Positions 23,740 through 32,000 are shown, numbered from the stretch's first letter. The stretch: 32,000 bases of DNA from Desulfovibrio sp. OH1186_COT-070 (GCF_003860215.1 NZ_RQYH01000025.1:2132-34131); one strand, 5' to 3'. The notes: generated from the sequence alone by a model not told the origin. Translations and numbers: made by a program.

Positions 23740-26700
23740 CTACTGCGGGCATTCCGTCCCGGCGGGGGGAGAAGGCACGCGCACCCCTTCCAGCAGGGCA
23801 CAGATTCTTTGCAGCCCTCCGGAGAAAGATTCTTCTGGCGGCAGCGGCAAATGCAGTCCTGCGGGAGGCAACATGCGCACCCCCGGCACGGAAGACGCCA
23901 GCTTCAGGATGCTTTCGGGCTGAACAGCGCTCTGGCCGTCAGGCCAGGTCAGGCGCACGTGGTCACGCCGCACATCGGCCTTCTGCACTTGCAGACGGCC
24001 AAGAAACTGCTTGAAGTCCAGCACGGCCAGAAAATTCTGCACTTCTTCGGGGAAGGGGCCGAAACGGTCCCGCATGTCCAGAGCAGCCGCCTCACGGGCA
24101 CTGCCGCTGCCTGCCGAGGTCAGGGCCTTGTAACAGCGCAGGCGTTCGCGCCCGTCCTCCACATAGGTTTCGGGAATATGCGCGGGCAGGCCCAAGGTCA
24201 GTTCGGTTTCGGGCACCAGCGCTCCGGGAGTACCCTTGAGGCGCGAAACTTCCTCCTCAAGCATTTCCAGATACAGATCCAGCCCCACCCGGCACATGTG
24301 CCCGGACTGCACCTCGCCCAGGATGTTTCCCGCTCCCCGCAGGCGCAAATCTTCCATGGCCACCTGAAAGCCCGCGCCCAGATAGTCCATGTCCATGATG
24401 ACGCGCAGGCGTTCTTCCGCCACCGGAGTCAGCCTGCGCGCATCAGGCACGACAAAAAAGGCGTATGCCTGCCGGTCGCTGCGCCCCACGCGCCCCCTGA
24501 GTTGGTACAACTGCCCCAGGCCGAACATCTGCGCCTGATCCACCACAAGCGTATTGGCCCGTGGAAAATCCAGGCCCGACTCCACAATGGACGTGCAGAC
24601 CAGCACATCCAGTTCTCCGTGCCAGAACTTGCGCATGGTGCCTTCCAGAGCGACTTCGGCCATCTGCCCATGCGCCATGCCCACCCGAGCCGAGGGAACC
24701 AGCCCGCGCACATATTCGGCCACGCGCTCCAGACCCTGCACGCGGTTGTACACCCAAAATACCTGCCCCTGCCGCTCCAGTTCGCGCTCCAGCACCTTGC
24801 GCAGCACGTCGTCATCGCGCTGCAGCACAGCCCCGGCCACAGGCTTGCGGTCCTGGGGGGCGGTTTCGATGATGGAAAGCTCGCGTATGCCGGACATGGA
24901 AAGCTGGAGCGTACGCGGAATGGGTGTGGCCGTCAGGGTGAGCACATCCACATTTTTTTTCAGGGCCTTGAGTTTTTCCTTGTGGCGCACCCCGAACCGC
25001 TGCTCTTCGTCAAGAATGAGCAGCGCAAGGTTGGGAAGCTTGACATCATTGGACAAAATCCGGTGCGTGCCGATGAGAATGTCTGTCTGCCCCGCCTCTG
25101 CCGCCCGCAGGACTTCTTTTTGCCGGGGGCGGGGCACAAAACGGCTCAACAGACCCACGTTCACGGGAAAACCCGCCAGCCGCGCACGAAAGGTCTGGTA
25201 GTGCTGCTCGGCCAGCACCGTGGTGGGGCAGAGCATGGCCACCTGCCGCCCCTCGGAGGCCGCGCGAAAGGCCGCCCGCAGGGCTACCTCGGTTTTGCCG
25301 AAGCCCACATCGCCGCAGACCAGACGGTCCATGGGCGCGCTTTTGTCCATGTCTTCCAGCACATCCCTGATGGCCTTGGCCTGATCCGGCGTTTCCTCAA
25401 AGCCGAAGGTGGCCTCGAACTCGTGATACAAATCTCCCGGCGGATCATAGCGAAAGCCCTTGGTCACCTTGCGGTAGGCATACATTTCCACCAGATCGGC
25501 GGCAATTTTTTCTATGGCCTTGCGCGCCTTTTCCCTGCCGCTGGCCCAGGCGGCCGTGCCCAGACGATCCAGCGCCGGTTCGCTGCCCTCCGCCCCCTTG
25601 AAACGCTGCACAAGGCCCAGCCGGTCCACGGGCACATAGAGCTTGTCCTGCCCGGAATACTCCACAAGCAGAAAATCGTTGGCCGCGGCGTGCATATCAA
25701 GGCGGTGCAGGCCCGCAAAACGGCCGATGCCGTAGTCACGGTGCACCAGAAGGTCGCCGGGCTTGAGGTCGTCAAAGCTGTCCAGCCCCTTGAAGACGCG
25801 CGAAGATACGCGGGGGGCCTTTTCCGCCCTGGGATACAGGATTTCTTCGCCCAGAATCAGGGCATTGTCCCAGGCAAGCTCCGCCCCCCGGCGAAAAGGC
25901 GACACCAGCGCAAAAAGGCCGGCCTGATCCGGCGCGTAGCGCAACGCGGGCGCAATGCCCTCCTGCGCGGCCAGCTTGAGAAATCCGGCCCGGCTTCTGG
26001 CCGAGGCAAAACTCAGCACCACCTGACGCCGCCCGCCCCTCCACTCCTTGAGAGCAGCGGAAAGGTGCTGCCAGGGGCGGTCAGAAGCGCCTGGCTGCGA
26101 AAAAAGGTCGGCAAAGGAATGCAGGGGCCTCTCGGCCAGGCGTATCCCGCGTTGTTCCACCCCCACCACCAGCGGCTCGGCGTGGACGCACTGAAAGCTG
26201 TTCCAGGGCGCGGGCAGAGAACGTTTGCGCAAGGCCAGGGACGTGGGCTGCGGCACAGGAGCTTCCAACGACTCAAGCCGTTCCTTGAGCAGAAGGCGCT
26301 CCTGAAGCAGGGCATCGCCGCTGTCCGCTTCGCCGGGCAGAAGCCAGAGGCTGTCTGCGGGGAGCCAGTCTTCCAGCAGGCTCGGATTTTCCAGCACGCA
26401 GCCGGGCAAAAGCCCTTCTCCCCCGGCATCCAGGGATTTTTTGAAGGAATAGCAGTCGTTCTCGCTGATGCGCCCTTGGGACAGCATATCGTTGCAGCGA
26501 TGCCGCGCCGCGTCCAGCGCGCTGGCGTCGAGAGCCAGAGGAGAAACGGGCAGCAGCGTAAATTCCGCACAGTCCAGCAGTGAACGCTGGCTTTCGGCGT
26601 CAAAAAAACGCATGTCTTCCAGCGTGTCACCGAAAAATTCCAGCCGCAGTGGGCGGGCGTAGCCCGAAGGGAAAATATCCAGAATATCGCCGCGCCGGGC

Positions 26701-27237
26701 CATTTCTCCGGGGCGAACCACCATGGGCACACGCCGGTATCCCCATTCCGAAGCCTGCTCCAGCAGAAGATCCGGCGACCAGTCGCTGCCCCACGCGAGA
26801 TCCAGACTGCGGGAGGCGAAGAAATCCCGCGGCATGTAACGCAACAAAAGGCTTTGGGCGCTGACCACAAGGCAGTGCGCCCCGGGCAGGGCCAAGGCAT
26901 GGAATACCGCCAGCAGCGAGGCCCACCGGGCCGTATCCCGCCAGTCGATCAACTCCGGCAGGAACAGGCAGGGGCTTTGCCATGACGGCATGGACAGGGA
27001 AACATCGCCGAGGGAAAGCTCCGGCGCAAAAAGCGTGGTCAGGGCGCGGGCAGCATGAAATTCCTCACGGGTGCGGGCGAGAATGACCGAAGTGCGGCCC
27101 GCAGCCTGCGCCTCGCAGGCAATGCGGCAGCGGGTGACCATGCCGCTGCGCTCCAGATGTATCCTGCTGTCTCCGGACGCAAGCAGTGTTTTGATATCCA
27201 TGCCGTGATCTGCGTGAAAGGACAAAGGGGGCGGCAT
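23740..27237 (-). CDS. mfd: Transcription-repair coupling factor Mfd
   Basis: The product contains the CarD-like segment (LKPGDLLVHRDYGIGRF). SF2 helicase motifs are present (CGDVGFGKTEVA, DEEQRFGV) along with a TRCF C-terminal domain. ATG 27237 is used as the start; ATG 27201 is an alternative and neither has a strong SD. Confidence 0.93.
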   Translation of the reverse strand: MPPPLSFHADHGMDIKTLLASGDSRIHLERSGMVTRCRIACEAQAAGRTSVILARTREEFHAARALTTLFAPELSLGDVSLSMPSWQSPCLFLPELIDWRDTARWASLLAVFHALALPGAHCLVVSAQSLLLRYMPRDFFASRSLDLAWGSDWSPDLLLEQASEWGYRRVPMVVRPGEMARRGDILDIFPSGYARPLRLEFFGDTLEDMRFFDAESQRSLLDCAEFTLLPVSPLALDASALDAARHRCNDMLSQGRISENDCYSFKKSLDAGGEGLLPGCVLENPSLLEDWLPADSLWLLPGEADSGDALLQERLLLKERLESLEAPVPQPTSLALRKRSLPAPWNSFQCVHAEPLVVGVEQRGIRLAERPLHSFADLFSQPGASDRPWQHLSAALKEWRGGRRQVVLSFASARSRAGFLKLAAQEGIAPALRYAPDQAGLFALVSPFRRGAELAWDNALILGEEILYPRAEKAPRVSSRVFKGLDSFDDLKPGDLLVHRDYGIGRFAGLHRLDMHAAANDFLLVEYSGQDKLYVPVDRLGLVQRFKGAEGSEPALDRLGTAAWASGREKARKAIEKIAADLVEMYAYRKVTKGFRYDPPGDLYHEFEATFGFEETPDQAKAIRDVLEDMDKSAPMDRLVCGDVGFGKTEVALRAAFRAASEGRQVAMLCPTTVLAEQHYQTFRARLAGFPVNVGLLSRFVPRPRQKEVLRAAEAGQTDILIGTHRILSNDVKLPNLALLILDEEQRFGVRHKEKLKALKKNVDVLTLTATPIPRTLQLSMSGIRELSIIETAPQDRKPVAGAVLQRDDDVLRKVLERELERQGQVFWVYNRVQGLERVAEYVRGLVPSARVGMAHGQMAEVALEGTMRKFWHGELDVLVCTSIVESGLDFPRANTLVVDQAQMFGLGQLYQLRGRVGRSDRQAYAFFVVPDARRLTPVAEERLRVIMDMDYLGAGFQVAMEDLRLRGAGNILGEVQSGHMCRVGLDLYLEMLEEEVSRLKGTPGALVPETELTLGLPAHIPETYVEDGRERLRCYKALTSAGSGSAREAAALDMRDRFGPFPEEVQNFLAVLDFKQFLGRLQVQKADVRRDHVRLTWPDGQSAVQPESILKLASSVPGVRMLPPAGLHLPLPPEESFSGGLQRICALLEGVRVPSPPAGTECPQ

Positions 27238-27258
27238 GTGGCCGCCCCCGGTAAGGCA

Positions 27259-27573
27259 TCAATGACCGCCGCAACCGGCGCAGGAGGAGCATCCGCCGCC
27301 GGTAGCAGGGAAAGGATTGGCAGGCTCGACCACAAAACCCATGTGATTGAGATCCACTGTCACGCCCTGCACCTGTTCCAGCAGTTCGGCGTTGATGCAG
27401 AAAGTGTGGCCTGCCTGTTCTTCGGTTTTGTCTTCCGCGCCCGGTTCGTCCAGAGCCAGGGCCAGACGGGGGCCGCCGCACCCCCCGGCCATGTATATCC
27501 TGATGGGGGCTTTTTCCTTGCCCTCGAAAAATGCATCAAGCTCCTTGCGAGCGCTGTCAGTCACGGTAAGCAT
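27259..27573 (-). CDS. HesB/IscA-like small protein, Cys form (paralog of the adjacent Sec gene)
   Basis: Start is ATG 27573 with SD GAGGA 7 nt upstream. The track start 27579 is a TTG. The 104-aa product is MLTVTDSARKELDAFFEGKEKAPIRIYMAGGCGGPRLALALDEP...GGGCSSCAGCGGH. Confidence 0.85.
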   Translation of the reverse strand: MLTVTDSARKELDAFFEGKEKAPIRIYMAGGCGGPRLALALDEPGAEDKTEEQAGHTFCINAELLEQVQGVTVDLNHMGFVVEPANPFPATGGGCSSCAGCGGH

Positions 27574-27627
27574 TGTCAATTCCTCGATATTTTTTGATTG
27601 TTGTTTGCAGGGCGGCGGTTTTGCATG

Positions 27628-27942
27628 TCAATGGCTTCCGCAACTGCTGCAGCTGCTGCACCCGCCGCCGGTGTCGGCAAAGGGCACGTCAGGTCTTACC
27701 ACAAATCCCATATAGTTCAAATCCACTGTCACCCCCTGCACCTGTTCCAGCAACCCGGCATCCATGCAGAAGGTATAGCCAGCCTGTTCCTCGGTCTTGT
27801 CCTGTTCGTTCGGCTCATCCAGAGCCAGGGCCAGACGGGGACCGCCTCAACCGGCCGCCATATATACCCTGACGGGCTCCTTCTTTTTGCCGGCAAAAAA
27901 AGCATCAAGCTCCTTGCGGGCACTTTCTGTCAATGTTATCAT
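27628..27942 (-). CDS. HesB/IscA-like selenoprotein candidate with in-frame UGA (Sec) at codon 32; absent from the ORF track
   Basis: ATG 27942 is preceded by SD GGAGGA 8 nt upstream. An in-frame TGA lies at 27849-27847 and the stop TGA at 27630-27628. Manual translation gives MITLTESARKELDAFFAGKKKEPVRVYMAAG-U-GGPRLALALDEPNEQDKTEEQAGYTFCMDAGLLEQVQGVTVDLNYMGFVVRPDVPFADTGGGCSSCSSCGSH. It aligns without gaps to the neighbouring 104-aa paralog (78/104 identical by hand count), with U opposite Cys32. Confidence 0.8.
27802..27834 (-). promoter_or_regulatory. Candidate bacterial SECIS hairpin downstream of the UGA
   Basis: The core on the mRNA is GGCUC-UGGAU-GAGCC (27826-27812), starting 20 nt after the UGA. 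The 5-nt apical loop contains GG. A possible lower CUG/CAG helix (27834-27832 with 27804-27802) lies across an internal loop. The Cys paralog has GAA instead of GAG here, which breaks the central C-G pair. Confidence 0.4.
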
Positions 27943-27976
27943 GTCTTGTATCCTCCAAATAGACTGTGGTTGCTGT

Positions 27977-28005
27977 TAGATAGGTACAAGCCCCCGACTT
28001 GTCAA
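27977..28005 (-). promoter_or_regulatory. Weak sigma70-like promoter candidate for the Sec-HesB gene
   Basis: Minus-strand TTGACA (28005-28000), a 17-nt spacer, then TATCTA (27982-27977). The -10 element matches the consensus at only 3 of 6 positions. Confidence 0.25.
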
Positions 28006-28103
28006 TCCGGGCTTTTCTTTGGCCGCAAAAAACATAAAAAACACACATTATTATAGATGCACCTCCGCAAAACAGTCGGAGGCAAAGCCGATCTGGAGAT
28101 ACA

Positions 28104-28667
28104 ATGTCTGTGGCAACCCGCCTTCTGAACGCCGGAGAAATGGCACAACTTCTTGAAAATCTGGCGTCCCGGATTCTTGAAAAGCATACCCGCTGCGAAA
28201 ATGTGATGCTTGTAGGCATCCAGCGCCGGGGAGCGGATCTGGCGCACCGCCTGGCCGGCCTGCTGAAAAAACGTCTCGGCCGCCCCGTTCCTCTGGGAAC
28301 TCTGGACATCAACCTCTACCGCGACGACTGGACAAGCCTGGCCGGAAAAACGCCGCATGTGGGGCAATCGCGCATTGACGAAGGAGTGGACAACCGCACC
28401 GTCATTCTTGTGGATGACGTCTTGTATACGGGGCGCACTGTCCGCGCGGCTCTGGAAGCCCTGCTGGATTACGGCCGCCCCAGTTCTGTGGAACTTCTGG
28501 CCCTTGTTGACCGGGGACACCGCGAGCTTCCCATCCATGCGGATTATGTGGGGCTTGCTGTGTGCACCGACCGTCAGGAACAGGTCAACGTGCTCCTGAC
28601 AGAACGTGACGGCGAAGACGTTGTGCGCCTTGAGCGCCCCGGCAGCGCTGGCGCGACCCCAAGGTAA
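28104..28667 (+). CDS. pyrR: Bifunctional pyrimidine regulatory protein / uracil phosphoribosyltransferase PyrR
   Basis: Start is ATG 28104 with SD GGAG. The product carries the PRPP-binding motif VILVDDVLYTGRTVRAA. It also contains LDINLYRDD and LVDRGHRELPI, colinear with B. subtilis PyrR as I recall it. Confidence 0.9.
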   Translation: MSVATRLLNAGEMAQLLENLASRILEKHTRCENVMLVGIQRRGADLAHRLAGLLKKRLGRPVPLGTLDINLYRDDWTSLAGKTPHVGQSRIDEGVDNRTVILVDDVLYTGRTVRAALEALLDYGRPSSVELLALVDRGHRELPIHADYVGLAVCTDRQEQVNVLLTERDGEDVVRLERPGSAGATPR

Positions 28668-28728
28668 CAGAAAAAAACTGCCTGCCCGGAAAGGGGGTTT
28701 TCATGTCTGCACGCAGAACCTGAATCGG

Positions 28729-28760
28729 CATATCCGCTCCACGGTTGTGGAGCGCATATG
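28729..28760. repeat. Inverted repeat with 14-bp arms, one mismatch and a 4-nt spacer, in the yedE leader
   Basis: CATATCCGCTCCAC-GGTT-GTGGAGCGCATATG. It lies 62 nt after the pyrR stop and 124 nt before the yedE ATG. No U-tract follows. Confidence 0.55.
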
Positions 28761-28883
28761 GACGGGGGGAGCGGCTCGGACAGGGATGCCCCGCTTGCCC
28801 GCACTGACCCGCTGGATTCCTCCGTCCGCAGTTCCGGCCCCGGCCGGACAATACGGGCACTGCCCGCCACGAAGGAGGAGTTC

Positions 28884-29978
28884 ATGAAAACAGGCTTCAA
28901 CTTTTTTTCCACTGCCACAGGCATTGCGGCCACAGGGCTCATCTTCGGGGTTCTGGCCATTTTGCTGCAAAAGGCCGGAAATCCCGGCAACATGGGCGTC
29001 TGCGTGGCCTGCTTCAGCCGGGATCTGGCCGGGGCCGTGGGGCTGCACCGGGCAGCCGTTGTGCAGTACCTGCGCCCGGAGATCATGGGCATGGTGCTGG
29101 GCGCGTTCGGCGCAGCGCTGGCCTTTGGCGAATACCGGCCGCGCGGCGGCTCCGCACCGGCAACACGCTTTCTTCTGGGGGCCATTGCGGGCATCGGCGC
29201 ACTGGTTTTTCTGGGCTGCCCCTGGCGGGCTCTGCTGCGTCTGGCCGGGGGAGACGCCCATGCAATCTTTGGCCTGCTGGGGCTCATTGCCGGGGTCGGC
29301 GTGGGCACAATTTTCTTTCGCATGGGCTTTTCTCTGGGGCGCAGCCAGACCCAAGGCAAAATTTCCGGCCTTGTTCTGCCCGCCCTCATGCTGGGCCTTG
29401 TGGCCCTTGCTCTGGCCAACCCGCCGATTCCCGATCAGGCGCAGAGCGGCGTGCTCTTTTATTCCCTCAAAGGCCCCGGCGCACAGCACGCGCCCTTTTT
29501 CCTCTCGCTGGGCGCAGGGCTGGCTGTAGGCTTTTTTGCCCAGCGCAGCCGCTTCTGTACCATGGGAGCTGTGCGTGACGTGCTGCTTTTCAACCAGTGG
29601 CATCTGGCCCTGGGATTTTTGGCCATGCTGGCGGCGGCACTGTTCATGAACCTCGCGTTCGGCACGTTCCACTGGGGTTTTGAGAACCAGCCCGTAGCCC
29701 AGCCGGACAATGTCTGGAACTTTCTGGGCATGGTCACCTCGGGGCTGGCCTTTGCCCTGGCGGGCGGTTGCCCCGGCCGCCAGCTTTTCATGGCCGGTGA
29801 AGGAGACAACGATGCCGCAGTCTTTGCGCTGGGGCTTGTCACGGGCGCAGCCATGGCCCACAACTTCGGCATGGCCTCCAGCCCGGTGGGCATTGGCCCT
29901 CACGGCATTGCCGCCACCCTGGGCGGTTTGGGCATCTGCCTGATGATCGGCTTTTTCAACTGCAAGCGAGGCGCCTGA
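28884..29978 (+). CDS. yedE: YedE-family membrane protein (putative selenium/sulfur-compound transporter)
   Basis: Start is ATG 28884 with a strong SD (GAAGGAGG). The product is polytopic and has the two pseudo-repeat conserved-Cys motifs of this family, GNPGNMGVCVACFSRD and SRFCTMGAVRD, plus LAGGCPGRQ. Confidence 0.85.
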   Translation: MKTGFNFFSTATGIAATGLIFGVLAILLQKAGNPGNMGVCVACFSRDLAGAVGLHRAAVVQYLRPEIMGMVLGAFGAALAFGEYRPRGGSAPATRFLLGAIAGIGALVFLGCPWRALLRLAGGDAHAIFGLLGLIAGVGVGTIFFRMGFSLGRSQTQGKISGLVLPALMLGLVALALANPPIPDQAQSGVLFYSLKGPGAQHAPFFLSLGAGLAVGFFAQRSRFCTMGAVRDVLLFNQWHLALGFLAMLAAALFMNLAFGTFHWGFENQPVAQPDNVWNFLGMVTSGLAFALAGGCPGRQLFMAGEGDNDAAVFALGLVTGAAMAHNFGMASSPVGIGPHGIAATLGGLGICLMIGFFNCKRGA

Positions 29979-30208
29979 TGTCTGTTCTCATTGATACGCG
30001 AGGGCTTTCCTGCCCCCAACCCGTACTTTTGTTTCTGAACGCAGCCAAGGCCGATCCCGACAAAACCTTTACCGTGCTGGTGGACAATGACGCCAGCCGT
30101 GAAAACGTCAGCCGCGCGGCCCGCAACCACGGGTTTGGCGTGACCCTCCAACAGGAAGACGAAGGCGTGATACGCCTGGAACTGACAAAAAACGGCCAGG
30201 CGTCCTGA
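29978..30208 (+). CDS. yedF: TusA/SirA-like sulfurtransferase-fold protein (YedF-like)
   Basis: The ATG overlaps the yedE stop (TGATG). The 76-aa product contains the DTRGLSCPQP CPxP active-site motif. Confidence 0.8.
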   Translation: MSVLIDTRGLSCPQPVLLFLNAAKADPDKTFTVLVDNDASRENVSRAARNHGFGVTLQQEDEGVIRLELTKNGQAS

Positions 30209-30279
30209 CTTTGGCGACGCCCAAGGCTATTGACGGGGCATCCCGGCGGTTCGCCTGCCGGGATGCCCAAGGACACCGT

Positions 30280-30894
30280 ATGCCCACAACCAGCCGACAC
30301 ACAGGCGCGGACGGCTTTTTTGCAAAACTGCGTGCGGGCGTTGCGGCCCTTGCCCACCGGATACGGTCTCCTGACGGACGCAAGGCCCTCAATGATCGGG
30401 GCCTGCTGGTCTTCAGCCATACGGGCGAGGTGATCAGAGCGGAACGGCTGTTGCGGGCAACGGGCTTTGACGTGGAGGTCAAAGGGCCGCCGCCGCAGTT
30501 GCGGACAGGCTGTGACATGGTCGTGGTTTTTGCCCTGATGCGGCAGGCAGCCGTTCTGGAAACGCTGCAACGCATCGGCCTGGTGCCGCAACAGGTCGTC
30601 AGCGCCCAGGACGTGCTGCTGGAACCGGTGTCCCTTTTTCAGGTCAAGCATTTTGGCGGACGCTGGATCATGGTTCGCGCGGCCAACATGAAGATCACCC
30701 TGGACAAAACGGACAACCGCATTGTGAACATTTCCGGCGGGGGCTGCCCCGATGTGCCGTGGCTGGCCCACAAATTGTGCGGCCTTCGCCTTGACCAGGC
30801 CCCGGAGCCCCTCTCGCTGGGCAGCACCCTCTGCTGCTACAGCCTGCAAAAAGCCTTTGAGGAATTGCGGAGGCAGAGCGCATGTGGTGCATAG
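30280..30894 (+). CDS. DUF3343 (putative Se/S carrier-like) domain protein with Cys-rich C-terminal extension
   Basis: Start is ATG 30280 with SD AAGGA; TTG 30211 is an alternative start. The DUF3343-like core is LLVFSHTGEVIRAERLLRATGFDVEVKGPPPQLRTGCDMVVVF. The C-terminal half carries GGGCPDVPW, TLCCYS and a terminal SACGA. Confidence 0.7.
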   Translation: MPTTSRHTGADGFFAKLRAGVAALAHRIRSPDGRKALNDRGLLVFSHTGEVIRAERLLRATGFDVEVKGPPPQLRTGCDMVVVFALMRQAAVLETLQRIGLVPQQVVSAQDVLLEPVSLFQVKHFGGRWIMVRAANMKITLDKTDNRIVNISGGGCPDVPWLAHKLCGLRLDQAPEPLSLGSTLCCYSLQKAFEELRRQSACGA

Positions 30895-31769
30895 TGGGCA
30901 CCCTGCCCCAGGAAGATATGCCTCTCTGCCCGCAGGGAGTTCGCGCGCAAAGCAGCCTGCAAAACGGCATGCTGTGCCTGCCCGACGGGCACAAAGTTCC
31001 CGTGGAGCGGGGCACAGCGGCACTGGCGGCCACTGCCCTGACGGTTTGCAGCGCACTGGGGCTGGAGCCGCCCCGCCTGCTTCTGGTGGGCGATCCGGGA
31101 AACGGCGCGGGCAGCCGCGCCATCTACGCATGGCTGGAAGAACACCTGGCGGAGATGGCTCCCGCCGGGCTTGTCTTCCATTATCTTTTTCCGGATACGG
31201 ACGGGCACAACCGCGTTCTGCTGACCGCCCGCGCCCTGCCCCGCCCGCCGCTCATGGTGGCTGATGCCGGGTTCATGTATGCCGCCAAGATGAGTGGGTA
31301 TGCCGATGCCTATGACCTGTTCACCCCTGACATGGGGGAACTGGCTTTTCTGGCCGACGAGCAGGCGCCCCATCCTTTCTATACACGGGGCTTTCTGCTG
31401 GCGGAAGAGGATGACGCCCCTGCCCTGCTGGCCCGCGCGCAAGCCCACGGCAACTGCCCCGCCAACCTTCTGATCAAGGGGGCCCGCGACCTCATTGTGT
31501 GCGGAGGAAGGGTGGCGCACACCGTATCCCGACCGTGTGTGCCGGCCATGGAATGCATCGGGGGAACAGGGGACATGGTGACCGGGCTGGTCACGGCCTT
31601 TCTTGTGAAGGGCTTTTCTGTGGAGCAAGCCTGCCTGACGGCGGCGCGTCTTGCCCGGCTGCTGGCAAAGGCCCATGATCCTGATCCGGGAACCACCGTG
31701 GGGCAACTGCTGGAAAGCCTGCCGCAGGTTCTGCGCGACTGCGGAAAAGACCTCGCCTGTCTGGGATAA
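30882..31769 (+). CDS. Ribokinase-fold protein resembling the YjeF C-terminal (Carb_kinase / NAD(P)HX dehydratase-like) domain
   Basis: ATG 30882 is preceded by SD GGAGG and overlaps the preceding gene by 13 nt. The motifs VADAGFMY, LFTPDMGELAFL, LLIKGARDLIV and GGTGDMVTGLVTAFL occur in the order typical of the Carb_kinase family. Confidence 0.65.
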   Translation: MWCIVGTLPQEDMPLCPQGVRAQSSLQNGMLCLPDGHKVPVERGTAALAATALTVCSALGLEPPRLLLVGDPGNGAGSRAIYAWLEEHLAEMAPAGLVFHYLFPDTDGHNRVLLTARALPRPPLMVADAGFMYAAKMSGYADAYDLFTPDMGELAFLADEQAPHPFYTRGFLLAEEDDAPALLARAQAHGNCPANLLIKGARDLIVCGGRVAHTVSRPCVPAMECIGGTGDMVTGLVTAFLVKGFSVEQACLTAARLARLLAKAHDPDPGTTVGQLLESLPQVLRDCGKDLACLG

Positions 31770-32000
31770 GCACCCGCTGATTGCAGACTGGCCTTTGTGG
31801 TGTACCTGACTGCATGGATCCCAAAAATGCTATGCCATCAAGGATATCTCTGATGTGCTAAAAATTTTTTGAAAATAGTAACGGCGCTGAATCAAAAATA
31901 TGGTTCTAGATAGTGTCGTCACGAGATTGAGGCCCATAAAAAGATACATCTGATCTGAATAGCGGCCAAGAATGAGGCTGCATTTTTCGCGTATCGGGTC

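What the first reader, a model, noticed from the sequence alone, without database searches (positions are those of the whole stretch)
27259..31769. Selenoprotein client genes and putative selenium-supply genes co-localised in about 4.5 kb
The Sec/Cys HesB-like pair on the minus strand and the yedE-led cluster on the plus strand are oriented away from each other. Only pyrR and two non-coding spacers lie between them. Physical linkage of a Sec-decoded Fe-S-carrier-like protein with a putative Se importer/relay suggests a functional connection. For example, the HesB-like proteins might act as selenide or Se-carrier scaffolds rather than classical Fe-S carriers. The presence of pyrR inside the neighbourhood is unexplained and may be coincidental.
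Basis: inference. Interest (0 to 1): 0.65.

Follow-up and report, generated by a model that had tools for sequence, protein, structure and literature searches.

The report
Selenocysteine-codon leader controlling a selenium-uptake operon
The selenoprotein genes and the selenium-supply genes do sit side by side, but only in one Desulfovibrio lineage, and the more notable find is that the "non-coding spacer" before the selenium transporter gene holds a conserved mini-gene with a selenocysteine codon that looks like a built-in selenium sensor.

Summary
The window holds a tandem Sec/Cys HesB-like pair (27259-27942, minus), pyrR, and yedE-yedF(TusA)-DUF3343/DUF8182-ribokinase-like (28884-31769, plus).

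The proposed HesB-YedE coupling is weakly supported. The adjacency occurs only in the gut Desulfovibrio (desulfuricans/piger) clade: 21 of 62 HesB loci, and 16 of 16 close but 0 of 23 distant module loci. The steadier partner of the HesB pair is pyrR. The four-gene yedE module moves as a unit. Elsewhere it lies beside selD/selB/selA, Sec-fdhA or glycine reductase genes.

The new element is in the pyrR-yedE spacer. It has a Shine-Dalgarno site, ATG 28703, five codons, in-frame UGA 28721 and a SECIS-like hairpin 12 nt later. The read-through frame stops at 28805, just before an anti-SD that can pair either with an upstream anti-anti-SD or with the yedE SD. The element is present in 54 loci, always upstream of yedE. 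Both helices covary and indels are codon-sized.

My best reading is a Sec-decoding leader ORF that senses selenium status and attenuates yedE translation. This is computational only, and I found no published precedent.

The parts
27259..27579 (-). hesB_Cys: IscA/HesB-family protein (NF038090), the Cys paralogue. It has a GGCGGP motif and a C-terminal GGGCSSCAGCGGH.
   Evidence: ORF. NF038090 at 93.7 bits against a cutoff of 85. The profile aligns to solved A-type carriers 1nwb, 2apn and 1s98.
27628..27942 (-). hesB_Sec: the selenocysteine paralogue. The UGA codon lies at 27847-27849 (codon 32).
   Evidence: The frame continues through the TGA with 75% identity to the Cys paralogue. NF038090 at 92.6 bits. 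Forty-eight of 80 related loci carry a Sec+Cys tandem pair.
27812..27826 (-). Bacterial SECIS hairpin of hesB_Sec: GGCUC-UGGAU-GAGCC, at +23 to +37 from the UGA.
   Evidence: The stem is perfect in 41 of 41 distinct Sec copies and in only 6 of 80 Cys copies. The window's own Cys copy has 4 of 5 pairs.
28104..28667 (+). pyrR (bifunctional pyr regulator/UPRTase), divergent from the hesB pair.
   Evidence: NF003549 at 216.5 bits against a cutoff of 138. It lies next to hesB in 45 of 80 loci across several genera.
28691..28807 (+). Leader ORF upstream of yedE: SD AAGGGGG (28691-97), ATG 28703, five sense codons, in-frame UGA 28721-28723, and a read-through frame ending at TGA 28805-28807. With UGA read as Sec, the 34 codons give MSARRT-U-IGISAPRLWSAYGRGERLGQGCPACPH.
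   Evidence: ATG and TGA are invariant and in frame in all 54 instances. The aligned second stop is in frame in 20 of 21 rows, with lengths of 102, 105, 108 or 111 nt. The peptide is not conserved and matches no NCBIfam family.
28735..28754 (+). SECIS-like hairpin CGCUCCAC-GGUU-GUGGAGCG, starting 11-12 nt after the leader UGA.
   Evidence: Found by pattern in 46 of 84 yedE upstream regions, against 0.65 expected in shuffles and 0 on the reverse complement. 96% of cells are paired and 3 of 7 pairs show compensatory change. The GGY loop resembles the FdhA SECIS GGCUCU-GGC-AGAGUC in L088 and L155.
28761..28768 (+). Anti-anti-SD (GACGGGGG) inside the read-through frame. It pairs with the anti-SD.
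   Evidence: RNAalifold recovers the long-range helix on 26 leaders. 94% of cells are paired, 4 of 7 pairs are compensatory, and 0 of 500 shuffles reach the score. The helix is predicted in the window when the SD is left out.
28816..28826 (+). Anti-SD (AUUCCUCCGUC), starting 8 nt after the leader's second stop. It can pair with either the anti-anti-SD or the yedE SD.
   Evidence: The anti-SD:SD helix has 89.7% of cells paired, 4 of 6 pairs compensatory, and 0 of 500 shuffles reach the score. It is present in the MFE fold of the full window leader.
28874..28879 (+). yedE Shine-Dalgarno GGAGGA, 4 nt before ATG 28884.
   Evidence: Sequence. It covaries with the anti-SD (GGAGGA/UCCUCC, GGGGGG/UCCCC, GGGGUG/CACCCC).
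28884..29978 (+). yedE: 364-aa membrane protein, a putative selenium transporter.
   Evidence: TIGR04112 at 440 bits against a cutoff of 200. Most homologues are 364 aa.
29978..30208 (+). Short YedF-like TusA-domain protein (76 aa, CPQP motif).
   Evidence: PF01206 at 53.4 bits. It scores below the YedF equivalog cutoffs (52 against 110, and 25 against 79).
30211..30894 (+). DUF3343 (Se_S_carrier) protein with about 95 extra C-terminal residues (GGGCPDVP, CCYSL). Homologues are recorded as carrying DUF8182. The likely start is ATG 30280.
   Evidence: PF11823 at 49.7 bits. Homologues carry PF11823+PF26554. No PDB or NCBIfam match.
30882..31769 (+). Divergent ribokinase-superfamily protein, the fourth gene of the module. 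Sources annotate homologues as 'NAD(P)H-hydrate dehydratase' or 'sugar kinase'.
   Evidence: PF01256 at 27.0 bits against 27, and TIGR00196 at 26.7 against 129.85. AF2 model pLDDT 87.6. Foldseek TM 0.51-0.56 to ThiD, PdxK/PdxY and Nnr at 11-17% identity. It follows yedE-yedF-DUF3343 in nearly all 80 metagenome loci, down to 43% identity.

Best explanation
The 4.5 kb holds three separate units that lie together only in the gut Desulfovibrio (desulfuricans/piger) clade.

(1) A tandem Sec/Cys pair of HesB/IscA-like proteins. The Sec copy is decoded through a conserved SECIS hairpin. These are selenoprotein 'clients' in which Sec replaces the first cluster-ligand Cys of A-type carriers, with a Cys isoform alongside.

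(2) pyrR. It is the ancestral divergent neighbour of the HesB pair.

(3) A self-contained four-gene selenium-supply module: yedE, TusA/yedF, DUF3343-DUF8182 and a ribokinase-like protein. It moves as a block between genomic contexts, often next to selD/selB/selA or other selenoprotein genes.

The link between HesB and the module is the generic one, in which selenium supply feeds Sec-tRNA and so all selenoproteins. It is not a dedicated pathway.

The module carries its own cis-regulator in the pyrR-yedE spacer. This is a leader ORF whose 7th codon is UGA, followed by a SECIS-like hairpin.

Inferred mechanism:
- When selenium, and hence Sec-tRNA(Sec)/SelB, is scarce, the ribosome terminates at the UGA. 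The anti-anti-SD (28761-68) stays paired with the anti-SD (28816-26). The yedE SD is free and the module is translated.
- When selenium is plentiful, Sec is inserted. The ribosome reads through the hairpin and the anti-anti-SD to the stop at 28805, just short of the anti-SD. The freed anti-SD pairs with the yedE SD and uptake is shut down.

Shown computationally: the element, its specificity for yedE, both helices with covariation, and frame conservation. Inferred only: actual Sec insertion, and the direction of the response.
For: Gene identities.

HesB SECIS: the stem is perfect in 41 of 41 Sec copies against 6 of 80 Cys copies. The Sec position aligns with the GGCSG Cys of solved IscA-type proteins.

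The linkage is lineage-specific:
- yedE lies in 21 of 62 HesB loci and pyrR in 38 of 62.
- hesB lies in 16 of 16 module loci with a kinase-like protein at 62% identity or more, and in 0 of 23 below that.
- HesB HMM hits occur in only 19 of 88 module loci, all of the same arrangement.
- Other HesB neighbours are housekeeping genes.

The module is a mobile unit in at least five contexts, including selB..grd, fdhA(Sec)..selD-selB-selA, hypF and MtmB. The four-gene order is kept in nearly all 80 metagenome loci, with GC content from 30% to 70%.

Leader element:
- It forms a conserved block in the spacer alignment.
- It was found in 46 of 84 yedE upstream regions against 0.65 in shuffles.
- The covariance model hits one site per locus in 54 loci, always upstream of yedE on its strand. 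No other hit below E = 0.005 occurs in 2.35 Mb.
- It stays with yedE where a 2-kb insert separates yedE from pyrR, and in contexts without pyrR.
- The hairpin covaries.
- The anti-anti-SD:anti-SD and anti-SD:SD helices both covary and share the anti-SD.
- Distant lineages (L088, L081, L115/L116, L144) keep the same layout with different sequences.
- The window folds show both alternatives.
- The second stop is in frame in 20 of 21 rows, with codon-sized length variation.
- The peptide itself is not conserved. The hairpin is read in different frames in the window and in L003.

Support for the direction: yedE mRNA rises 5.3 log2-fold on selenium depletion in Methanococcus maripaludis (PMC11097638).
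Against: - There are no expression, ribosome-profiling or 75Se data. Sec insertion at leader codon 7 is inferred.
- Energy-based duplex tests did not separate the anti-anti-SD:anti-SD pairing from shuffles in this GC-rich RNA (mean -27.9 against -28.0). They separated anti-SD:SD only weakly (-18.5 against -15.2).
- The whole-leader fold has a z-score of only -1.55.
- Most of the 54 instances are related Desulfovibrionaceae, so the shuffle statistics overstate independence.
- Any anti-SD resembles the 16S rRNA 3' end, so part of the anti-SD:SD complementarity is trivial.
- The leader is absent from some module loci (L082-85 and all low-GC lineages). It is therefore not obligatory for the module.
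- The UGA-to-hairpin spacing (10-13 nt) differs from that in hesB (20 nt) and fdhA (17 nt) of related genomes.
- The genome scan for HesB used a Cys-form peptide pattern. It therefore missed lineages with only Sec forms and the archaeal/clostridial TIGR01911 type.
Confidence: 0.62

Rival explanations
1. The HesB-like Sec/Cys proteins are selenide or selenium-carrier scaffolds that work with the YedE/YedF/DUF3343 relay, and the co-localisation reflects that shared pathway.
For: The adjacency is conserved in the gut Desulfovibrio clade: 21 genomes and 16 contigs. The module tends to sit by selenium genes elsewhere. The function of HesB-like selenoproteins is unknown (PMC11097638, PMC13188914).
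Against: The adjacency traces to a single lineage with identical synteny. Seventeen HesB loci keep pyrR but lack yedE, and 24 lack both. No HesB-like gene lies in the 69 module loci outside that clade. The units are divergently oriented with pyrR between them, and a 2-kb insert separates them in some species. No upstream motif is shared. In M. maripaludis, hesB (MMJJ_08070) and yedE (MMJJ_13000) carry locus tags far apart (PMC11097638).
Confidence: 0.1
2. The leader UGA is an ordinary stop codon. A 6-codon mini-ORF and the downstream RNA form a switch that responds to something else, such as SelB binding to the hairpin as at E. coli selAB, a small ligand, or general translation status. There is no Sec insertion.
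For: E. coli selAB is repressed by SelB binding a SECIS-like 5'UTR hairpin without decoding (as described in PMC13449736). The hairpin and the two helices would serve equally well in such a switch.
Against: ATG and UGA are invariant and in frame, with a 3-nt indel in L081. The second stop is in frame in 20 of 21 rows despite length variation of 102, 105, 108 and 111 nt, and it always lies just before the anti-SD. The hairpin lies about 120 nt from the yedE SD rather than 3 nt as at selAB.
Confidence: 0.2
3. The element is the same but the sign is opposite. Read-through ribosomes that stop at 28805 cover or unwind the anti-SD and free the yedE SD, so selenium sufficiency switches the module on.
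For: The second stop lies only 8-10 nt from the anti-SD. A terminating ribosome's footprint could therefore reach it. The MFE of the full-length leader is the SD-sequestered state.
Against: It gives positive feedback on uptake, which is the opposite of the rise in yedE mRNA on selenium depletion in M. maripaludis (PMC11097638). It also gives no role to the conserved, covarying anti-anti-SD helix.
Confidence: 0.2
4. The read-through ORF encodes a functional small selenoprotein, for example a selenium-binding peptide, rather than a sensor.
For: The ORF length is conserved at 28-43 codons and the UGA position is invariant.
Against: The amino-acid sequence is not conserved, and conserved stretches coincide with RNA helices. 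The hairpin arm is read in different frames in the window and in L003. There is no family match.
Confidence: 0.05

Closest known systems
Leader-peptide attenuators (trp/his operons; translational attenuation of ermC/cat)
   Same: A short upstream ORF whose translation at a 'test' codon decides between mutually exclusive RNA helices. One of those helices sequesters the downstream SD.
   Different: The test codon is UGA, recoded as selenocysteine with a SECIS-like hairpin. The input would therefore be Sec-tRNA(Sec)/SelB, i.e. selenium status, not a standard aminoacyl-tRNA or an antibiotic. No terminator U-tract is present, so control looks translational.
E. coli selAB 5'UTR SECIS-like element (SelB-mediated translational repression; described in PMC13449736)
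   Same: A SECIS-type hairpin upstream of a selenium-metabolism operon, read by the Sec machinery to give feedback.
   Different: At selAB the hairpin lies 3 nt from the SD, has no upstream ATG...UGA, and acts by steric block. Here the hairpin follows an in-frame UGA in a translated leader, lies about 120 nt from the SD, and acts through an anti-anti-SD/anti-SD/SD relay.
Selenium control of fdhF(Sec) in Treponema primitia by translation-transcription uncoupling at the Sec codon (PMC3892789)
   Same: Failure to decode UGA under selenium limitation alters expression of downstream sequence.
   Different: There the UGA lies inside the selenoenzyme gene itself, and limitation lowers downstream transcript. 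Here a dedicated leader ORF controls a separate transporter operon.
HesB-like selenoproteins (TIGR01911; NF038090 IscA_HesB_Se) and A-type Fe-S carriers (IscA/SufA/ErpA)
   Same: The window pair passes NF038090. The Sec/Cys residue aligns with the first ligand Cys of IscA.
   Different: The C-terminal motif is GGGCSSCxGCG rather than C-G-C. Scores against the IscA, SufA and ErpA equivalogs are far below their cutoffs. Function is untested.
YedE/YedF/DUF3343 selenium-metabolism genes (Lin et al. 2015, PMC5322559)
   Same: yedE, a TusA-like yedF and a DUF3343 protein are clustered and associated with selD.
   Different: Here YedF is the short TusA-only form, and DUF3343 carries an extra DUF8182 domain. 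A conserved fourth gene (ribokinase-like) and a Sec-codon leader are present. Neither appears in that paper where I searched it.

Membership tests
NF038090 IscA_HesB_Se (HesB-like Sec/Cys family) | Profile score above the curated cutoff | tested here: met
   93.7 and 92.6 bits against a cutoff of 85.
NF038090 IscA_HesB_Se (HesB-like Sec/Cys family) | Sec or Cys at the G-G-[C/U]-x-G-P position, with a SECIS after the UGA in Sec forms | tested here: met
   The UGA aligns with invariant Cys34. The hairpin is perfect in 41 of 41 Sec copies.
A-type Fe-S cluster carrier (IscA/SufA/ErpA) | Three ligand cysteines C-x(n)-C-G-C, and equivalog-level similarity | tested here: inconclusive
   The first Cys aligns. 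The C-terminus is CSSCxGC rather than CGC. PF01521 scores 24.2 and 27.3 against 26.3. Equivalog scores are 16-23 bits against cutoffs of 117-181. Cluster binding is not testable here.
TIGR04112 seleno_YedE | Equivalog score above the cutoff over the full length | tested here: met
   440.4 bits against 200, covering residues 14-357.
YedF (TIGR03527 / PRK11018) | Equivalog score above the cutoff (TusA domain plus C-terminal domain for TIGR03527) | tested here: not met
   52.2 against 110 and 25.1 against 79. Only the TusA domain is present (PF01206, 53.4 bits). It works like the N-terminal half of YedF. The DUF3343 part is a separate gene.
NAD(P)H-hydrate dehydratase (YjeF_C / Nnr), the name given by sources to the fourth gene | TIGR00196 or PF01256 score above the cutoff | tested here: not met
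   26.7 against 129.85, and 27.0 against 27.0, which is borderline. PDB profile hits cover only the C-terminal ~90 residues.
Ribokinase superfamily fold | Alpha/beta ribokinase-like core with a GxGD anion-hole motif | tested here: met
   AF2 pLDDT 87.6. Foldseek TM 0.51-0.56 to ThiD, PdxK, PdxY and Nnr. The GGTGD motif is invariant.
Bacterial SECIS (for the leader hairpin) | Stem-loop shortly downstream of an in-frame UGA, with G/U in the apical loop, in an organism that has the Sec machinery | tested here: met
   The gap is 10-13 nt, the stem 7-10 bp, and the loops GGU, GUU, GGC or GGUU. The loop resembles the FdhA SECIS of related genomes. The genome decodes hesB_Sec.
Bacterial SECIS (for the leader hairpin) | SelB binding and actual Sec insertion | not testable with these tools
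   This needs 75Se labelling, a SelB gel shift or ribosome profiling.
Leader-ORF translational attenuator | Short ORF with a regulatory codon, two mutually exclusive conserved helices, and one helix sequestering the downstream SD | tested here: met
   The regulatory output was not tested.
selAB-type SECIS-like operator | Hairpin immediately next to the SD, with no decoded UGA upstream | tested here: not met
   The hairpin ends at 28754 and the SD starts at 28874. It is preceded by an in-frame ATG...UGA.

The most novel reading that the evidence does not exclude
Desulfovibrionaceae sense their selenium status directly through the genetic code. A dedicated leader ORF has a single UGA, read as selenocysteine with the help of its own SECIS, and this UGA acts as the test codon of a translational attenuator. 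The attenuator switches the YedE selenium-uptake/relay operon off when Sec-tRNA(Sec) is plentiful. It would be the first natural attenuator based on stop-codon recoding. It would also be the first cis-acting selenium sensor for a transporter. It would further mark the conserved ribokinase-like fourth gene as an unrecognised selenium-metabolism enzyme.
Probability: 0.5. Interest if true: 0.85.

Novelty: new variant of a known kind. Interest (0 to 1): 0.72.

Why it matters
How bacteria sense selenium and control its uptake is largely unknown. The M. maripaludis study (PMC11097638) states that no selenium-specific transporter is established and that the sensing route is unclear.

A leader ORF that uses Sec decoding as its read-out would give a simple, directly testable mechanism. 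It also provides a ready-made selenium-responsive genetic switch. It would tie YedE expression to selenium status, which strengthens YedE's assignment as a selenium-supply protein.

The work also adds a conserved fourth gene, a ribokinase-like protein now misnamed NAD(P)H-hydrate dehydratase, to the YedE/YedF/DUF3343 set.

For the original finding, the work shows that gene adjacency within one clade should not be read as a HesB-YedE pathway.

Tried and rejected
- **Rfam.** A permissive scan of 27000-32000 (E up to 1) gave only chance hits to eukaryotic and archaeal families. It found no SECIS and no PyrR-binding site.
- **Promoters and terminators.** The scan found no sigma-70-like site. The terminator-like hits are mostly inside genes. 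The strongest (27227-27249) overlaps the mfd start.
- **Single-sequence fold of the hesB SECIS region.** It was not significant (z = -1.12). The comparative test was what counted.
- **First ORF picker.** It chose antisense ORFs in this GC-rich DNA. I replaced it with a codon-usage score.
- **Shared operator.** I looked for one between the hesB and yedE upstream regions. No 9-mer recurs.
- **Duplex-energy tests.** Tests of the anti-anti-SD:anti-SD and anti-SD:SD pairings against shuffles were uninformative. I relied on covariation instead.
- **Secondary covariance-model hits.** The weak hit in L116, L117 and L130 (E = 0.08) lies inside a coding region and was dismissed.
- **Sequence searches.** The DUF3343-DUF8182 protein found nothing in PDB or NCBIfam, and the leader peptides found nothing in NCBIfam.
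- It was rerun with A3.
- **Rejected readings of the leader hairpin:**
  - A pyrR terminator. There is no U-tract, and the element follows yedE in contexts without pyrR.
  - A longer 406-aa YedE starting at ATG 28758. The family model starts at residue 14 of the 364-aa form, and most homologues are 364 aa.

Full report
**1. What is in the window**

On the minus strand:
- mfd lies at 23740-27237.
- hesB_Cys lies at 27259-27579.
- hesB_Sec lies at 27628-27942. Its frame runs through a TGA at 27847-27849 that aligns with the invariant Cys34 of the paralogue.
- Both HesB copies exceed the NF038090 IscA_HesB_Se cutoff.

On the plus strand:
- pyrR lies at 28104-28667.
- yedE lies at 28884-29978 (TIGR04112, 440 bits).
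- A 76-aa TusA-domain protein lies at 29978-30208. It scores below the YedF equivalog cutoffs.
- A DUF3343/Se_S_carrier protein with an extra C-terminal domain lies at 30211/30280-30894.
- A protein at 30882-31769 barely touches the Carb_kinase/YjeF_C profile.

The rest of the window holds housekeeping genes: a SurA-like gene, rodZ, glyQ, glyS, tRNA-Arg, an MFS gene, a LacI gene and a DAPDH gene. I found no selD, selA, selB, fdhA or grd.

**2. The HesB pair is a real Sec/Cys pair**

A genome scan with a HesB alignment returned 80 loci, all from Desulfovibrionales. The search pattern matches only Cys forms, which is a sampling limit.

- Forty-eight of the 80 loci carry a tandem Sec+Cys pair, in either order. 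D. piger has three copies.
- All 41 distinct Sec copies have the same perfect hairpin GGCUC-UGGAY-GAG(C/U)C at +23 to +37 from the UGA. Only 6 of 80 Cys copies can form it, even though both encode A-L-D-E-P there. That is a SECIS under selection.
- A profile of the family aligns to solved A-type carriers (1nwb, 2apn, 1s98, 1x0g). The Sec/Cys residue falls on the GGCSG ligand cysteine.

The literature lists HesB-like selenoproteins but gives them no function (PMC11097638, PMC13188914).

**3. Is the HesB-YedE linkage conserved?**

From the HesB side:
- Among 62 species-representative loci with at least 4.5 kb of flank, yedE is present in 21 and pyrR in 38.
- Seventeen loci keep pyrR next to hesB without yedE. 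These include Bilophila, Lawsonia, Halodesulfovibrio, Oleidesulfovibrio and Desulfolutivibrio.
- Twenty-four loci have neither.
- All yedE-positive loci share one gene order: kinase-like, DUF3343, yedF, yedE, pyrR, then divergently hesB, hesB, mfd. They belong to the desulfuricans/piger gut clade.
- In five of them a 2-kb insert lies between yedE and pyrR. It holds a GSP_synth-like gene and a small ORF.
- Other recurrent HesB neighbours are housekeeping genes: PrmA, HhH-GPD, an M23 peptidase, an S41 protease, HslU, ArgB, RarA, FabI, HisD and LOG.

From the module side:
- Look-ups of YedE and kinase-like homologues show the same four genes in other contexts. One is selB-EamA-module-grdX-grdE-grdB (L082/83). 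A second is fdhA(split at Sec)-fdhB-fdhE-module-selD-selB-selA (L088). The remaining two are HEM4...module-hypF (L081) and an MtmB/URO-D methyltransferase cluster (L084/85).
- A metagenome scan with the kinase-like protein gave 80 loci at 43-71% identity and 30-70% GC. The yedE-yedF-DUF3343-kinase-like order is kept nearly everywhere.
- hesB and pyrR are present in 16 of 16 loci at 62% identity or more, and in 0 of 23 below that. selD lies in 10 of 33 distant loci with enough flank.
- A HesB HMM run on six-frame translations, with TGA read through, hit 19 of 88 module loci. All 19 have the one arrangement.

The adjacency is therefore one lineage-specific juxtaposition. The module's tendency to sit by selenium genes makes a selenoprotein neighbour unsurprising. 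Nothing points to a dedicated HesB-YedE pathway. pyrR is the more faithful partner of the HesB pair, and I cannot explain why.

**4. The pyrR-yedE spacer is not empty**

Aligning the spacer from 18 loci exposed a block conserved far better than its surroundings. In the window it reads as follows:
- SD AAGGGGG at 28691-97.
- ATG at 28703, followed by TCT GCA CGC AGA ACC.
- UGA at 28721-23.
- After 11-12 nt, the hairpin CGCUCCAC-GGUU-GUGGAGCG at 28735-54.
- If the UGA is read through, the frame runs to TGA 28805-07.
- Eight nt later comes AUUCCUCCGUC (28816-26), which is complementary to the yedE SD GGAGGA (28874-79).

A pattern search looked for ATG, 4-7 codons, TGA, an 8-16 nt gap and a stem of at least 6 bp. 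It found the element in 46 of 84 yedE upstream regions. The expectation was 0.65 in shuffles, and the reverse complement gave 0. A group with a bulged stem adds more instances.

The element is present in every gut-Desulfovibrio locus. It is also present in L088, L081, L144 and the L114-L130 group, which have other flanks. It stays at -150 to -225 from yedE where the 2-kb insert separates yedE from pyrR. It therefore belongs to yedE.

A covariance model of the ORF plus hairpin hits exactly one site per locus in 54 loci, always upstream of yedE on its strand. Nothing else scores below E = 0.005 in 2.35 Mb searched on both strands.

**5. Structure and frame**

*The hairpin.* 96% of cells are paired and 3 of 7 pairs change on both sides. 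Slid controls reach 29-60%. Variants include GUUCCAC/GUGGAAC, AACUUCAC/GUGAGGUU and AGACCUUG/UGAGGUCU. Its GGY loop and stem length resemble the FdhA SECIS GGCUCU-GGC-AGAGUC of L088 and L155.

*The anti-anti-SD:anti-SD helix.* RNAalifold on 26 full leaders returned the hairpin and one long-range helix. That helix joins a G-rich segment just after the hairpin (the anti-anti-SD, window 28761-68) to the anti-SD. 94% of cells are paired, 4 of 7 pairs are compensatory, and 0 of 500 shuffles reach the score.

*The anti-SD:SD helix.* The competing helix between the anti-SD and the yedE SD has 89.7% of cells paired and 4 of 6 pairs compensatory. No shuffle out of 500 reaches its score. Examples are UCCUCC/GGAGGA, UCCCC/GGGGGG and CACCCC/GGGGUG.

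*Two alternative folds.* The two helices share the anti-SD, so they exclude each other. The window leader folds into anti-SD:SD when complete. It folds into anti-anti-SD:anti-SD when the SD is left out. Distant lineages with unrelated sequences show the same three-part layout.

*Frame evidence.*
- The aligned second stop is in frame with the ATG in 20 of 21 rows. The distances are 102, 105, 108 or 111 nt, so indels come in whole codons.
- The one exception has a 1-nt deletion and an earlier in-frame stop.
- The second stop lies a few nucleotides up to about 20 nt before the anti-SD in nearly all distinct leaders.
- The peptide is not conserved. The conserved residues are those encoded by the helices, and the hairpin is read in different frames in the window and in L003.
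- No NCBIfam family matches the peptide.

**6. Mechanism (inferred)**

With little Sec-tRNA(Sec)/SelB, the ribosome terminates at codon 7. The anti-anti-SD:anti-SD helix forms first during transcription and persists. The yedE SD stays open and the module is made.

With ample selenium, Sec is inserted. The ribosome unwinds the hairpin and the anti-anti-SD and stops just short of the anti-SD. The anti-SD then pairs with the SD and translation initiation at yedE falls.

This sign matches the 5.3 log2-fold rise of yedE mRNA on selenium depletion in M. maripaludis (PMC11097638). The opposite sign is possible, in which the terminating ribosome masks the anti-SD. A switch that needs SelB binding but no decoding is also possible. 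Both are listed as rivals.

Weak points:
- There are no experimental data.
- Duplex energies do not beat shuffles in this GC-rich RNA.
- The sequences are related, so the shuffle tests overstate independence.
- The leader is missing from L082-85 and from low-GC lineages. Those lineages instead show a conserved TTTGAC-containing motif upstream of yedE.

**7. What is known**

- YedE, YedF and DUF3343 were proposed as selenium genes from gene context (PMC5322559, PMC9312934). My term search of PMC5322559 found no kinase-like partner, and the leader element appears in no paper I found.
- E. coli selAB has a SECIS-like 5'UTR hairpin bound by SelB (described in PMC13449736).
- T. primitia fdhF(Sec) transcription depends on decoding its own UGA (PMC3892789). 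That paper notes that an attenuator based on a rare amino acid had only been built synthetically.
- Full-text searches for a Sec-codon leader, attenuator or selenium sensor found nothing. A 2026 review of 119 selenoprotein families mentions no leader or attenuator. The searchable library is incomplete, so prior description cannot be excluded.

**8. The fourth gene**

- Its homologues are highly conserved, with invariant ADAGFMYVAKMSGYA...FTPD.GE.AFLADE.APHPFYTRGFLL, NCP and MECIGGTGD.
- Sources name it NAD(P)H-hydrate dehydratase or sugar kinase.
- It fails the Nnr model (26.7 against 129.85).
- Its AF2 model (pLDDT 87.6) matches ribokinase-fold vitamin kinases and Nnr at TM of about 0.55 and 11-17% identity.
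- Its fixed place after DUF3343, often before selD, makes it a candidate selenium-metabolism enzyme of unknown reaction.

**9. Verdict**

The HesB-YedE functional reading is only partly supported, because the linkage is one-clade synteny.

The most interesting content of the interval is a conserved UGA-containing leader with a SECIS-like hairpin and an SD switch upstream of yedE. I rate it a new variant of leader-ORF attenuation, with about even odds that it works as a selenium sensor as described.

Noticed in passing
window 27943-28103 (hesB_Sec-pyrR intergenic); L013-L073: pyrR lies divergently next to the HesB pair in 45 of 80 loci, across Desulfovibrio, Bilophila, Lawsonia, Halodesulfovibrio, Oleidesulfovibrio and Desulfolutivibrio. 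The outer flanks differ between these genera. No reason for a pyrR-hesB association is apparent.
   Followed up: partly
window 30882-31769; L089-L168: The ribokinase-fold gene is a constant fourth member of the yedE-yedF-DUF3343 operon, down to 43% identity and 30% GC, and is often followed by selD. Databases name it NAD(P)H-hydrate dehydratase, but it fails that model. It is a candidate unrecognised selenium-metabolism enzyme.
   Followed up: partly
window 30570-30894: The DUF3343 protein has about 95 extra C-terminal residues with Cys motifs (GGGCPDVP, CCYSL). Homologues are recorded as carrying PF26554 (DUF8182). No PDB or NCBIfam match was found.
   Followed up: partly
L088 3024-15626: L088 holds a compact selenium island: fdhA (split at its Sec codon), fdhB, fdhE, leader, yedE, yedF, DUF3343, kinase-like, selD, selB and selA.
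   Followed up: partly
L125, L129, L141, L147, L154, L155, L161, L168 (about 60-120 nt upstream of yedE): Distant, mostly low-GC module loci lack the Sec leader. They share instead a TTTGAC-containing motif, palindromic in L129. In L125 and L154 the adjacent upstream sequence looked by eye like the start of a divergent LysR-type gene, but this was not checked. The motif may be a LysR_Se operator, which would be an alternative way of controlling the same module.
   Followed up: no
L023 7043-8670; also L039, L042, L045, L108: A 2-kb insert lies between the yedE leader and pyrR. It holds a glutathionylspermidine-synthase-like gene (PF03738) and a 139-aa ORF with no family.
   Followed up: partly
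L028, L029, L036, L099-L102, L106: D. piger-type loci carry three tandem HesB copies (Cys, Cys, Sec) rather than two. The Sec/Cys order is reversed between lineages (23 loci with Sec first, 21 with Cys first).
   Followed up: no
window 27227-27249: A strong 9-bp GC hairpin (GGGGGCGGC...GCCGCCCCC) followed by Ts was scored as a terminator after hesB_Cys. Its loop holds the mfd start codon (27237).
   Followed up: no
window 31800-32000: Base composition drops abruptly to AT-rich sequence right after the module's last gene. This may be an island or insertion boundary at the window edge.
   Followed up: no
window 28758-28883: An ATG at 28758 opens a frame continuous with yedE. Some gene callers report 406-412-aa YedE forms (P0122, P0136). 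This extension overlaps the leader RNA and is probably a miscall.
   Followed up: partly
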